DNA of 64,000 nucleotides from Malacoraja senta (GCA_038087875.1 CM075989.1:21702001-21766000); one strand, 5' to 3'. Counted from the stretch's first letter, positions 43,751 to 45,523 are shown. Made by a program: numbers and translations. The notes: generated by a model not told the origin, from the sequence alone.

Positions 43751-44863
43751 CTATTTGATTATTTAGTGGCTGACAGAATCTCCTCCTTATAGCTGCAACA
43801 GGTCCAAACACCATTAGCCGGCATCATGATAAGAAACCCGTGTCCATTATTGTATTTAAAATTGCTGCAAACTAAACAGAAAAAGATTATATCTTAGATA
43901 AACTCAATCTTACTGACCTGGAACACCTCCGTCTCCTTTCTTGATCTCACTTTTTCTTGGCTCCAGTCCCCCCCCCCCCCTCCTCTGTCTTTCAGTCTGA
44001 AGATGGGTCCCAACCCAAAACGTCACCCGTTCCTTCTCTCCAGAGATGCTGCCTGGCCCGCTGAGTTACTCCAGCTTTTTGTGTCTATCTTCGATATGAA
44101 CCAGCATCTGCAACACTACAGAAAGAAAAAAAATGTTTGTACTAACCTATTTCCCACAATAATTTACCATATTATCAACTAATAATTTCTTCTCTTGGCA
44201 TATTTTTAAGGTACTATAGGCAATAAACACTCACTATTGCTTTGGCAAGATACTGAGTCAATTAATGAAAAATTCATTCTGGCTTTCTCAATGTAAACCT
44301 GGAAGGGCATAACTAAATAAGTACGCTATACATATTTCAGTCAGGAAAAGTAATTGTGCAATCTATGTTTTATTTTATGTGTTTAGGGTTCAAGTGGAGA
44401 ATTAATTGAAGTCCATCATTCATTCATTTTATGATCAGTGAATGCACTAGATATGCAAATAAACAGGAAGAAATATTGTCATTCTAAAGAAAAGTAACTG
44501 AAAATCTGATGATTTAATAGTTAGTTATTAACTGTAATGCATTCTCTGTCCATATGTCAGAAATCTTAAAGCTGATCTTTATGATTTGTATTGTTTTATT
44601 AATTAGATGTGGGGTGGGACAGTGACAACACAAGTGAAGCTACATACAGATTTAGTTTATTTAGATATACAGGGCAGAAACAGGCCCTTTGGCCCAACAA
44701 GTGAAGGCCAACCAGCGATCCCCACATCTGTGACACTATCCTACACTAGGGACAATTTTACATTTATACCAAGCCAATTAACCTACAAACCTGTACGTCT
44801 TTGGAGTGTGGGGGGAAACCGAAGATCTCGGCGAAAACCCACGCAGGACACGGGGAGAACACA

Positions 44864-45005
44864 CTTCTTCTTCTTCTTTCGTGTGGCGTGCACAGCCTCA
44901 AGTTGTTGAACAACTTGTTCTATTTGATCTTCCGTTTGTGCACGTCGAGTTGATTGCATTAGTCGAAACAGGGCGGACCACGTGAAGGTTGCAATCTTCC
45001 ACCCC
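44864..45005 (-). mobile_element. ~142-nt ribozyme-headed non-autonomous retroposon with (GAA)n tail
   Basis: Interrupts a SINE; GGAGAAC duplicated at 44854-44860 and 45007-45013; ends ACACG-AAAGAAGAAGAAGAAG; no Pol III boxes. Confidence 0.8.
44952..45005 (-). ncRNA. Minimal HDV-like (CPEB3-type) self-cleaving ribozyme motif, 54 nt
   Basis: P1 GGGGUGG/CCGCCCU with G1.U; P2 GAUUGCA/UGCAAUC; P3 ACC/GGU; L3 UUCACGU; vestigial P4 U(UUCG)A; J4/2 CUAA with putative catalytic C at 44962. Manual fold; activity untested. Confidence 0.85.
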
Positions 45006-45523
45006 TGGAGAACGTGCAAACCAAAGGAATAGTTAGATCTCAAGCCGGGTGTTGAGCAGCCAGGTTGTTGTCTCTGCGTCAATGTCTGCCAGGCCCTGAG
45101 CTCCATTTGGTGGGTGGTAGAGCGGGCACCCAGAGATGACATGGTTGGTTGTCTGTTGTTCTGCTTTGCATTCACAGGCTAAAGTCTGGAGAAGTCCCCA
45201 TCTCCACATGCTGGCATTGAAACGCCCAACTCCAGTGCAAAGTCTTGTTGACGTGACTAGACGACATATGTTGTTCTACTGACCAGGAGAAATGTCCAGA
45301 CCAGTCCTCAATCAGGGAAAGAATGCAAACTCAATTGTCTGGCCCACAAATTTTAATCTTATACAACGAGTCAACCATAAAACATAGATTTAATCTCATA
45401 AATGTACAAATCACTTTACTTCATTCAATTAGATAAATCGGATTGTCACTTTGGGGTTGTGTAGTAGGAATGAGCCTGGCATCATTTCTGGCTCTAATGA
45501 AAGTAATCTGCACCATATCTATA

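What the first reader, a model, noticed from the sequence alone, without database searches (positions are those of the whole stretch)
44864..45005. Tiny retroposon that begins exactly with a minimal HDV/CPEB3-like ribozyme
Seen: the minus strand from 45005 reads GGGGUGG-AA-GAUUGCA-ACC-UUCACGU-GGU-CCGCCCU-GUUUCGA-CUAA-UGCAAUC. This gives all elements of the nested double pseudoknot in order: 7-bp P1 with G1.U, perfect 7-bp P2, 3-bp P3, 7-nt L3, a P4 reduced to U(UUCG)A, and J4/2 CUAA. Predicted G+1 lies one base from the duplicated target (GGAGAAC), so the element's 5' end matches the cleavage site. Known: HDV-like ribozymes process 5' ends of R2, L1Tc/ingi, SIDER and RTE elements; as I recall, L3 UUCACGU followed by GU after P1 matches the mammalian CPEB3 ribozyme. 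Inference: a promoterless SINE-like family released from read-through transcripts by self-cleavage and mobilised by a (GAA)n-tailed LINE (Vingi/Ingi or RTE-like). I do not know of a description in cartilaginous fish but cannot check.
Basis: partly seen in the sequence, partly recalled or inferred. Interest (0 to 1): 0.92.

Follow-up and report, generated by a model that had tools for sequence, protein, structure and literature searches.

The report
Ribozyme-headed mini-retroposon and its partner LINE
A 125-base jumping element present in thousands of copies starts exactly with a miniature hepatitis-delta-type self-cutting RNA fold, and a compact LINE in the same genome starts with a full-size version of that fold, so both RNAs are most likely trimmed to their exact starts by cutting themselves out of longer transcripts.

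Summary
Window 45005..44864 (minus strand) is one copy of a short retroposon: a 125-nt body plus a GAAA(GAA)n tail. The family has more than 5,000 copies in this 1.94-Gb genome.

- **Exact 5' end.** In an unbiased sample of 61 unique full-length copies, 49 have a target-site duplication directly abutting G1 of the predicted ribozyme. A shifted control gave 0 of 61.
- **The fold.** The first 54 nt fit the HDV-like nested double pseudoknot. A descriptor found this one site in the window and none in 150 shuffles.
- **Candidate partner LINE.** I found a young, (GAA)n-tailed, roughly 3.2-kb single-ORF LINE. Its mapped 5' end is a full-size HDV-like ribozyme with the same helix lengths. Its start codon sits at the J4/2-P2 junction.
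- **Relatives.** Three metagenomic relatives of that LINE carry the same device just upstream of their ORF.
- **Covariation.** Across retroposon, own LINE and relatives, 126 of 126 pair cells are standard pairs. Twelve of 18 pairs show compensatory changes. Slid controls pair at 42-47%.

Rfam models score below threshold, and the CPEB3 model gives no hit. Self-cleavage is inferred, not shown. No LINE shares the retroposon's sequence at either end.

Verdict: a real new member of a known kind, ribozyme-processed non-LTR elements. It has a natural P4-less ribozyme.

The parts
44864..45005 (-). One copy of the short non-autonomous retroposon (125-nt body plus tail)
   Evidence: Full-length 98-100% matches elsewhere in the genome. 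This copy differs from most copies at element positions 97 and 107.
44952..45005 (-). Predicted minimal (P4-less) HDV-like ribozyme, element nt 1-54
   Evidence: Weak Rfam hits only to HDV families: RF02682 at 16 bits and RF00094 at 12.9 bits.
44999..45005 (-). P1 5' strand GGGGUGG. G1 (45005) is the predicted nucleotide 3' of the cut and the element's first base.
44990..44996 (-). P2 5' strand GAUUGCA
   Evidence: Pairs with 44952-44958. Five of 7 P2 pairs are compensatory in alignment A4.
44977..44989 (-). P3 (ACC/GGU) enclosing L3 UUCACGU
   Evidence: U20 and G25 are invariant in A4. C22 pairs with G37 (P1.1), which covaries to U-A in the own LINE.
44970..44976 (-). P1 3' strand CCGCCCU
   Evidence: 4 of 7 P1 pairs are compensatory and none is broken.
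44963..44969 (-). J1/4 (GU) plus a 5-nt remnant (UUCGA) where the LINE relatives carry a P4 hairpin
   Evidence: MAFFT places a single 31-35-column gap here against the LINE ribozymes.
44959..44962 (-). J4/2 CUAA. C at 44962 is the predicted catalytic cytosine.
   Evidence: C and the two A are invariant in A4. The second letter varies (U, G, A, C) among subfamilies and relatives.
44952..44958 (-). P2 3' strand UGCAAUC. Together with the preceding A it keeps an AUG at the place of the LINE start codon.
44887..44944 (-). Predicted 3' stem-loop of the body (element nt 62-119), a possible recognition element for the reverse transcriptase
   Evidence: MFE fold. The stems do not vary between subfamilies A and B. 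Its function is inferred.
44864..44880 (-). GAAA(GAA)n tail
45007..45013 (-). Upstream copy of the target-site duplication GTTCTCC
44854..44860 (-). Downstream copy of the target-site duplication GTTCTCC

Best explanation
The element is a short non-autonomous non-LTR retroposon. Its first 54 nt form a miniature HDV-like self-cleaving ribozyme that lacks the P4 hairpin.

Likely course of events:
1. A copy is transcribed as part of a longer RNA.
2. The ribozyme folds into the nested double pseudoknot and cuts immediately 5' of G1. This gives the element RNA its exact 5' end.
3. The 3' stem-loop and (GAA)n tail are used by the reverse transcriptase of a (GAA)n-tailed LINE for target-primed reverse transcription. 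The cDNA runs to G1.
4. Integration leaves a duplication of about 12 bp.

The likely helper is a young, compact, single-ORF LINE of about 3.2 kb in the same genome. It has an APE endonuclease, a reverse transcriptase and a C-terminal Cys/His motif. It starts with a full-size HDV-like ribozyme of the same helix lengths, and its start codon lies in the J4/2-P2 junction. The retroposon's head is a P4-deleted relative of this clade's 5' ribozyme.

Shown: the family, its exact 5' ends, the fold, the covariation and the LINE. Inferred: cleavage, read-through transcription and which LINE mobilises it.
For: 1. **Exact 5' end.**
- In the best-hit set, 40 of 53 unique loci have a duplication abutting G1 and 5 more have a 1-nt gap.
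- In an unbiased sample chosen by a mid-body 20-mer, 63 of 67 copies keep the 5' head.
- Of the 61 unique copies among them, 49 have a duplication at gap 0, 3 at gap 1, 1 at gap 2 and 8 have none. The control gave 0 of 61.

2. **The fold.**
- It has every HDV-like element in order.
- The descriptor finds 1 site in the window and 0 in 150 shuffles.
- Of 4,227 Rfam families, the only hits on the sense strand of the element are HDV ribozyme models, and both align G1 to the cleavage-site end of P1. The wider 501-base scan also listed one weak lncRNA-model match (GHRLOS, 10.6 bits, E 5.2) on the opposite strand over the tail.

3. **The LINE.**
- The 3' end is ...TELQV* plus 13 nt plus (GAA)n, with more than 1,300 candidates at 97-99% identity.
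- The 5' end was mapped by BLAST. 38 non-self hits start at query 255-276, mostly 258-264, and G1 is at 260.
- 11 of 18 unique fetched junctions start exactly at GGRGGAG behind unrelated flanks.
- That start folds as P1 7 bp with G1.U36, J1/2 2 nt, P2 7 bp, P3 3 bp, L3 7 nt and a P4 hairpin. J4/2 is CCAA, followed by AUG.

4. **Covariation.**
- Retroposon against own LINE: 99.3% of cells pair and 9 of 18 pairs are compensatory.
- Adding three metagenomic relatives, whose fold lies just upstream of the homologous ORF: 126 of 126 cells pair and 12 of 18 pairs are compensatory. Slid controls give 42-47%.

5. **Differences between subfamilies.** Within the ribozyme these fall only on position 8 (J1/2) and position 45 (second letter of J4/2). 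That is 2 of 54 columns against 11 of 80 in the body.

6. **No Pol III-type head.** There is no tRNA and no tRNA, 7SL or 5S hit.

7. **Published knowledge.**
- The cleavage site of HDV-like ribozymes is the first nucleotide of P1 (PMC4908430, passage).
- P4-less minimal forms exist (PMC10879173, passage).
- Such ribozymes process the 5' ends of non-LTR elements and their non-autonomous derivatives (PMC6765202 and PMC5786205, passages and section 23).
Against: - No cleavage was observed. Only Logan contigs were available, and they cannot show RNA ends.
- Rfam scores are far below gathering: 16 against 44 and 12.9 against 50. The LINE head scores 19 against 44.
- Nested folding energy is no better than shuffles.
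- Copies within the family are 98-99% alike and their differences are post-insertion, so they carry no covariation. All covariation comes from a few lineages: 2 retroposon rows, 2 own-LINE rows and 3 relatives.
- The three relatives were picked by a descriptor that demands pairing, which biases the pair count.
- Only 3 of the 23 metagenomic loci that reach the N-terminal region matched the descriptor.
- The excess conservation of the ribozyme between subfamilies is not significant (Fisher p = 0.074).
- Similarity of the retroposon's 3' body to the LINE is no better than shuffles.
- A second (GAA)n-tailed LINE, RTE-like, exists in the genome.
Confidence: 0.82

Rival explanations
1. The fold is real and conserved but is not, or not mainly, a self-cleaving ribozyme. 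On this reading the exact 5' end comes from transcription starting at G1, driven by an internal promoter as in Pr77 of L1Tc or by Pol III. The pseudoknot would then serve protein binding, 5' protection or translation start.
For: - Cleavage was not tested.
- In L1Tc the same 77 nt are both promoter and ribozyme (abstract of PMC3383444, seen in the listing).
- In all four LINE ribozymes the start codon sits in the J4/2-P2 junction, which fits a role in translation. Reviews propose such a role for R2 and L1Tc (PMC6765202, passages).
- The element has no run of four T, so Pol III is not excluded by a terminator.
Against: - The residues that matter only for catalysis are kept. The C of J4/2, U20 and G25 are invariant in all 7 rows. 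The wobble at the cut site is G.U in 5 of 7 rows and G-C in the other 2.
- The head resembles no tRNA, 7SL or 5S RNA.
- The 3.2-kb protein-coding LINE carries the same head, which a Pol III promoter would not explain.
Confidence: 0.12
2. The retroposon is mobilised not by the compact Cys/His-motif LINE but by the RTE-like LINE of this genome, which also ends in (GAA)n, or by both.
For: - L007 holds an RTE-type ORF end (...RGRPRNSWRR...EEQRA*) running straight into (GAA)5.
- Only the tail and the 7-mer CACACGA link the retroposon's 3' end to the compact LINE, and the local alignment is no better than shuffles.
- The older subfamily B ends CATACGCAA rather than CACACGAAA.
Against: - The head of the retroposon is related to the 5' ribozyme of the compact LINE clade.
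- That LINE is young and abundant like retroposon subfamily A.
- The RTE-like element was seen once and was not studied further.
Confidence: 0.25
3. The pseudoknot reading is a chance pattern in an ordinary repeat.
For: The nested MFE is not better than shuffles. The Rfam hits are below threshold.
Against: - 0 hits in 150 shuffles.
- The fold coincides with the mapped 5' ends of two different elements.
- 126 of 126 cells pair, with 12 compensatory pairs.
Confidence: 0.01

Closest known systems
Non-autonomous derivatives of ribozyme-bearing LINEs: R2 SIDEs of Drosophila (PMC3414825), and NARTc, RIME and SIDER of the trypanosomatid L1Tc/ingi group (PMC3185411, PMC4035085; abstracts and listings only)
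   Same: Short, non-coding, mobilised in trans. The first bases are an HDV-like ribozyme that sets the 5' end, and the 3' end is the one used by the LINE's reverse transcriptase.
   Different: - Those are internal-deletion copies that share sequence with their LINE at both ends. Here no LINE shares the sequence at either end.
- The head has lost P4.
- The host is a 1.94-Gb animal genome with dispersed, not site-specific, insertions.
HDV-like ribozymes at the 5' ends of R2, R1, R4, RTE, LOA (Baggins) and Ingi LINEs (list in PMC5786205, section 23; PMC6765202, passages)
   Same: The partner LINE starts with a full-size double-pseudoknot ribozyme directly before its ORF. Its likely role is release from co-transcripts, perhaps also translation start.
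   Different: [quoted passage not shown] It is Vingi-like or L2-like in build, and neither clade is among the six listed in 2018.
- The start codon is built into the J4/2-P2 junction in 4 of 4 LINE ribozymes seen.
Minimal HDV-like ribozymes (drz-Mtgn type) and theta ribozymes of gut phages (PMC10879173, passage)
   Same: The nested double pseudoknot without the P4 domain, about 50-60 nt long.
   Different: Those come from metagenomes and phages and trim tRNAs or have no known role. This one heads a retroposon in an animal genome, and its P4-bearing relatives are at hand, so the loss of P4 can be seen as one deletion.
Mammalian CPEB3 ribozyme (PMC4836649, passages)
   Same: - The same numbering up to P1.1.
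- U20, C22, A23 and G25 in L3.
- A weak P1.1 of one G-C plus one U-U.
- A 4-nt J4/2 beginning with the catalytic C.
   Different: - CPEB3 is a single-copy intronic ribozyme with a full P4.
- The Rfam CPEB3 model does not hit this RNA at E up to 10.
Vingi LINEs and their non-autonomous derivatives and SINE bodies (PMC5786205, passages and section 23; PMC13708176, passages)
   Same: [quoted passage not shown]
   Different: Clade membership of the LINE here was not tested by phylogeny. No paper in the searched library links Vingi to a ribozyme other than as separate topics.

Membership tests
HDV-like (delta-like) self-cleaving ribozymes | Nested double pseudoknot: P1 and P2 cross, with P3 and P1.1 inside | tested here: met
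   The sequence pairs as stated. 126 of 126 cells pair and 12 of 18 pairs are compensatory over 7 rows.
HDV-like (delta-like) self-cleaving ribozymes | The cleavage site is the first nucleotide of P1, so the product starts at G1 | tested here: met
   Tested indirectly. The retroposed copies begin at G1 in 49 of 61 cases. LINE copies begin at G1 in 11 of 18. RNA ends were not seen.
HDV-like (delta-like) self-cleaving ribozymes | Catalytic cytosine at the start of J4/2, followed by two A before P2 | tested here: met
   C, A and A are invariant in alignment A4. The second letter is free.
HDV-like (delta-like) self-cleaving ribozymes | G.U wobble at the cleavage site, and the U20/G25 pair of L3 | tested here: met
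   G1.U36 in 5 of 7 rows and G-C in 2. T20 and G25 are invariant.
HDV-like (delta-like) self-cleaving ribozymes | P4 hairpin | tested here: not met
   The retroposon has 5 nt where the LINE relatives have 23-36 nt with a hairpin. P4-less forms are accepted members (PMC10879173, passage).
HDV-like (delta-like) self-cleaving ribozymes | Score at or above the Rfam gathering threshold (RF00094, RF02682) | tested here: not met
   12.9 against 50 and 16 against 44 bits. The LINE head scores 19 against 44.
HDV-like (delta-like) self-cleaving ribozymes | Mg2+-dependent self-scission | not testable with these tools
   Needs a bench assay.
CPEB3 ribozyme family (RF00622) | Match to the family's covariance model | tested here: not met
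   No hit at E up to 10 in a 501-nt or a 61-nt search.
CPEB3 ribozyme family (RF00622) | Core residues U20, C22, A23, G25, and a P1.1 of G-C plus U-U | tested here: met
   The residues are named in passages of PMC4836649. The same letters stand at the same numbers here.
Classical SINE (Pol III head from tRNA, 7SL or 5S) | Head derived from a small RNA gene with an internal promoter | tested here: not met
   ARAGORN finds none. No such Rfam hit at E up to 10.
Bipartite non-autonomous LINE | 5' and 3' ends shared with an autonomous LINE | tested here: inconclusive
   The 5' fold is related but much diverged. The 3' end shares only (GAA)n and CACACGA. No LINE has the same sequence.
Bipartite non-autonomous LINE | Microsatellite tail and target-site duplications of variable sequence | tested here: met
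   (mean duplication 11.5-12.1 bp).
Vingi clade (for the partner LINE) | Compact single ORF with APE endonuclease and RT, and no RNase H | tested here: met
   - The ORF starts at the ribozyme and runs straight into the endonuclease.
- RVT_1 is the only Pfam hit in the RT-to-C-terminal pieces.
- Relatives are about 1,000 aa with Exo_endo_phos plus RVT_1 on 3.1-3.6-kb contigs.
Vingi clade (for the partner LINE) | Grouping with reference Vingi reverse transcriptases in a tree | not tested
   No reference LINE sequences (Repbase, Dfam) are on hand.

The most novel reading that the evidence does not exclude
A widespread clade of compact single-ORF LINEs has relatives named from teleosts, a tunicate, insects and an arachnid. 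On this reading the clade generally begins with an HDV-like ribozyme that holds its own start codon in the J4/2-P2 junction. One small RNA device would then provide 5' release, 5' protection and cap-independent translation start.

The retroposon would be a P4-deleted parasite of that device, still carrying the relic AUG. The mammalian CPEB3 ribozyme, which shares the L3 core and the weak P1.1, would be a domesticated relic of the same lineage.
Probability: 0.15. Interest if true: 0.85.

Novelty: new member of a known kind. Interest (0 to 1): 0.62.

Why it matters
- **A natural minimal ribozyme in an animal genome.** It gives a 54-nt HDV-like ribozyme in thousands of copies, together with its P4-bearing relatives. 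Evolution has already run the test of whether P4 can be dispensed with.
- **A wider range of ribozyme-headed LINEs.** The range extends to a compact single-ORF clade that is not on the 2018 list of six clades (PMC5786205). It also shows a recurrent start codon inside the ribozyme, which makes the proposed link between cleavage and translation start directly testable.
- **Possible practical bearing.** Compact LINEs of this build are being developed as gene-insertion tools that keep the native 5' UTR (PMC13708176, passages). Knowing that such a UTR may be a self-cleaving ribozyme could matter there. This last point is my inference, not a tested link.

Tried and rejected
**[quoted passage not shown]** Rejected. 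The element has its own duplication, and thousands of copies sit behind unrelated flanks.

**Search for a LINE with the retroposon's 3' body but no ribozyme.**
- One pattern gave 2 hits, a copy with a 2-nt deletion and one truncated copy.
- A second pattern gave 0 hits.

**Search for the ribozyme followed by non-retroposon sequence.**
- 95 hits, nearly all copies with small indels.
- The recurrent exception, L144, is a 3'-truncated head inside an inverted repeat, not a LINE start.

**Search for the same P3/L3 with another P2.** 8 hits, all with different flanks, which look like truncated copies.

**L114/L143 as a possible LINE 3' end of the retroposon.** There is no reverse-transcriptase ORF upstream. 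L143 instead yielded the other LINE by chance.

**RNA evidence.**
- All 23 runs are kept as contigs, and only one is RNA on record.
- Laying four of them showed many unlike flanks starting beyond 45005: 25 contigs in X1, 38 in X2 and 8 in X6. This confirms the boundary in other samples but says nothing about cleavage or expression.

**3' similarity of retroposon and LINE.** Not above shuffles.

**Other metagenomic LINE starts.**
- L197, and the family L241, L250 and L252, look as if they might hold the fold.
- They failed the descriptor or are 5'-truncated, so I did not count them.

**Papers and earlier notes.**
- Not held, so not read: Kojima 2011 (Vingi), Ruminski 2011, Webb 2009.
- Earlier notes of this scan had nothing on this genome or sequence.

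Full report
**What is at the coordinates.**
- The 142 nt consist of a 125-nt body and a GAAA(GAA)4G tail (44880..44864).
- GTTCTCC lies on both sides, at 45013..45007 and 44860..44854. One extra A stands before G1, and TGT stands between the tail and the second copy.
- Upstream is the end of an older LINE ORF (...TRLEI*, stop at 45035..45033).
- The element is an insertion into that older repeat, not part of it. Elsewhere in the genome it sits behind unrelated flanks.

**A large, young family with an exact 5' end.** The window's assembly (G000, 1.94 Gb) holds the following.
- At least 1,562 candidates for the 142 nt. The 40 that were scored are all 98-100% identical.
- 1,382 exact matches of the first 28 nt.
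- 667 exact matches of the commonest 3' 28-mer. The window copy's own 3' 28-mer occurs only twice, because this copy carries two private changes.
- 5,157 exact matches of a mid-body 20-mer.

I took the first 60 places of that 20-mer list plus 7 already held. This sample does not depend on the ribozyme.
- 63 of 67 copies keep the 5' head and 4 are 5'-truncated or rearranged.
- Of the 61 unique copies with the head, 49 have a duplication of at least 7 nt directly abutting G1. Three have a 1-nt gap, one a 2-nt gap and 8 have none.
- A control block 18 nt further upstream gave 0 of 61.
- In the best-hit set, the counts were 40 at gap 0, 5 at gap 1 and 8 unscored, of 53. By eye, three of those 8 also abut G1, and two have a run of extra G before G1.

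The RNA that is copied therefore starts at G1.

**Subfamilies**.
- A young subfamily has J1/2 AA and J4/2 CUAA, and ends ...CACACGAAA(GAA)n.
- Older subfamilies have J1/2 GA or AA and J4/2 CGAA or CAAA, and end ...CAUACGCAA(GAA)n.
- Between the two main consensus sequences, 2 of 54 ribozyme columns differ (positions 8 and 45, both unpaired). In the body 11 of 80 differ. The trend is as expected under selection on source copies but is not significant (p = 0.074).

**The fold.**
- P1 is GGGGUGG/CCGCCCU, with G1.U36 and U5.G32 wobbles.
- J1/2 is AA. P2 is GAUUGCA/UGCAAUC. P3 is ACC/GGU. L3 is UUCACGU.
- C22-G37 forms P1.1. A 5-nt stretch (UUCGA) stands where P4 should be. J4/2 is CUAA.
- A descriptor with loose lengths finds only this site in the window and none in 150 dinucleotide shuffles. 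I wrote the descriptor after seeing the sequence.
- Rfam at gathering thresholds finds nothing in the window.
- With E-values, the sense-strand hits are HDV-F-prausnitzii (16 bits, E 1.8 on 501 nt and 0.22 on 61 nt) and HDV_ribozyme (12.9 bits, E 4). Both put G1 at the start of P1. The only other listed match is a weak lncRNA-model hit on the opposite strand over the tail. The CPEB3 model does not appear.
- Nested MFE folding is not better than shuffles. Pseudoknots are invisible to that method, so this neither helps nor hurts.

**No LINE with the same sequence.** Patterns that exclude the common copies, by demanding other letters at several positions, gave these results.
- No LINE has the retroposon's 3' body.
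- No LINE has its ribozyme followed by other sequence.
- No LINE has its P3/L3 with another P2.

The element is therefore not a simple internal-deletion copy of a LINE now in this genome.

**A partner LINE with the same device.** I scanned the fetched DNA for other (GAA)n tails. Two LINE ends turned up.

One is RTE-like, in L007.

The other, in L143, ends ...CECGDPTQTVEHIVTSCPKHRPPNGERGLIDLDDDTLAWLASTELQV*, followed by AAGACACACGACA(GAA)5. This second LINE has these properties.
- It is young and abundant, with more than 1,300 candidates at 97-99% identity.
- Candidate numbers fall towards the 5' end, 164 at the RT region, as expected for a LINE.
- Walking upstream reached L160. There the ORF begins MSLPRLQTAKSH...LQLNVEGL and runs directly into an APE endonuclease.
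- A BLAST of the region maps the 5' end. The 38 non-self hits begin at query 255-276, mostly 258-264.
- I fetched 20 junctions. With L160 and after removing three duplicates they give 18 unique rows. Of these, 11 start exactly at GGRGGAG behind unrelated flanks. Four differ only in the first base. Three begin 2-4 nt inside, and some of these abut inverted pieces of the LINE itself.

From that first G the RNA reads as follows.
- P1 GGRGGAG/CUCCUCU (G1.U36 in most copies).
- J1/2 AC. P2 AAAGACA/UGUCUUU. P3 GCC/GGC. L3 UYUACGC.
- A P4 hairpin, which plain folding predicts together with P1 and P3.
- J4/2 CCAA.

The helix lengths and numbering equal those of the retroposon. The start codon is the last A of J4/2 plus the first UG of P2.
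- Rfam again gives only the HDV-F-prausnitzii model, at 19 bits and E 0.35-0.4, in 3 of the 4 loci scanned.
- From the pieces, the LINE is about 3.2 kb long.
- Pfam sees RVT_1 and no RNase H in the pieces scanned.

**Relatives and covariation.**
- MAFFT aligns retroposon and LINE heads with a single gap at P4.
- On 4 + 4 rows, 99.3% of cells pair and 9 of 18 pairs change on both sides.

Protein relatives of the LINE have this profile.
- They are single ORFs of about 1,000 aa with Exo_endo_phos and RVT_1.
- They lie on contigs of 3.1-3.6 kb.
- The few that are named come from teleosts, a tunicate, insects and an arachnid.

A scan of metagenome contigs with their alignment gave 80 loci, of which 23 reach the N-terminal region.
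- The descriptor found the fold on the coding strand just upstream of the ORF in three: L184:12-84, L214:54-131 and L253:296-368.
- Each has a different P4 hairpin and again an AUG at the J4/2-P2 junction.
- The strict run also gave two hits on the opposite strand. The relaxed run gave two on the opposite strand and one far from the ORF. None of these has that AUG, and I take them as chance.

On seven rows (2 retroposon, 2 own LINE, 3 relatives) the result is as follows.
- All 126 cells are standard pairs, and 12 of 18 pairs have compensatory changes.
- The pairs are spread over P1 (4), P2 (5), P3 (2) and P1.1 (1).
- No shuffle of 500 reaches this, and slid partners pair at 42-47%.

Two cautions apply. 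The rows represent few independent lineages. The three relatives were chosen by a rule that requires pairing. Their position and the shared AUG were not part of that rule.

The retroposon's core is closest to L184: ACC/GGU, UUCNCGU, CUAA. The retroposon also keeps the AUG, which marks its head as a former LINE start.

**How it most likely works.**
- Shown: the fold, its conservation by compensatory change, and its coincidence with the 5' ends of two elements.
- From established knowledge: HDV-like ribozymes cut at the first nucleotide of P1 (PMC4908430, passage). They free non-LTR elements from co-transcripts (PMC6765202, passages). P4-less forms are known (PMC10879173, passage).
- Inferred: copies are transcribed by read-through. 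The head cuts 5' of G1. The stem-loop and (GAA)n tail recruit the LINE's reverse transcriptase. The cDNA ends at G1, which explains why truncated copies are rare (4 of 67).

Which of the two (GAA)n LINEs does the copying is open. The related heads, the shared CACACGA before the tail, and the like age favour the compact LINE.

**Comparison with what is known.**
- The kind is known. It includes R2 SIDEs, NARTc, RIME and SIDER, and ribozyme-headed RTE, Baggins and L1Tc.

New here:
- A P4-less head in an animal retroposon, seen next to its P4-bearing relatives.
- A compact single-ORF LINE clade that is not among the six listed with 5' ribozymes in 2018 (PMC5786205, section 23).
- The start codon inside the ribozyme in all four LINE heads.

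My searches for HDV-like together with chondrichthyans, for Vingi with ribozyme, and for HDV-like with SINE and retrotransposon found no description of this family. Repbase and Dfam could not be consulted, and subscription papers are not searched.

The CPEB3 likeness rests on shared core residues named in PMC4836649 and on recollection of its L3. The Rfam model does not support membership.

The host taxon was not examined.

Noticed in passing
window 45033-45200 (minus strand): End of an older LINE ORF (...CECKAEQQTTNHVISGCPLYHPPNGAQGLADIDAETTTWLLNTRLEI*). Its C-terminus resembles that of the partner LINE and of protein P0015. The retroposon copy sits about 20 nt past its stop codon.
   Followed up: partly
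window 44700-44860 (minus strand): Directly after the downstream duplication runs a repeat tail (ccgtgtcctgcgtgggttttc...ccaaagacgtacaggtttgtaggttaattgg). From memory it looks like the 3' tail of L2/CR1-type fish LINEs. Whether it belongs to the older LINE fragment upstream was not settled.
   Followed up: no
L007:1280-1475 (+): An RTE-like LINE ORF end (...RGRPRNSWRRGVPTEMSESGLNWGDLERTANNPVRWRTFVNGLFSLEEQRA*) runs straight into (GAA)5. This is a second (GAA)n-tailed LINE family in the genome.
   Followed up: no
L144:1-190: A 3'-truncated ribozyme head (ending at P2) lies inside an inverted repeat of about 50 nt. The same junction occurs on a second contig.
   Followed up: partly
L004 and L055, 5' junctions: Two copies have a run of about 8-10 extra G between the duplicated target and G1. 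These may be untemplated additions or slippage on the GGGG start.
   Followed up: no
L169, L177, L178, L181 (LINE 5' junctions): Several LINE 5' ends abut an inverted piece of the LINE's own 3' region. This looks like the 5' inversions known from twin priming.
   Followed up: no
run X12, record 15, laid on window 44883-45005: A contig from an RNA library holds element nt 1-68 followed directly by a second element restarting at G1. This is either one copy inserted into another or a partial tandem. The junction upstream of that G1 is uncut in the contig, and DNA carry-over cannot be excluded.
   Followed up: no
L160:3095-3215: The longest LINE copy fetched carries an insertion of about 115 nt of another short repeat (GAAGAAGGGTTTCGGCCCGAAACGTT...) inside its endonuclease region, flanked by a duplicated AACTTCCTGAAACTTC.
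   Followed up: no
L059/L050/L112 and others, element position 31-32: The commonest single changes in copies are C-to-T or G-to-A at the CpG in the P1 3' strand (CCGCCC to CTGCCC or CCACCC). This is the pattern of methyl-CpG decay after insertion.
   Followed up: no
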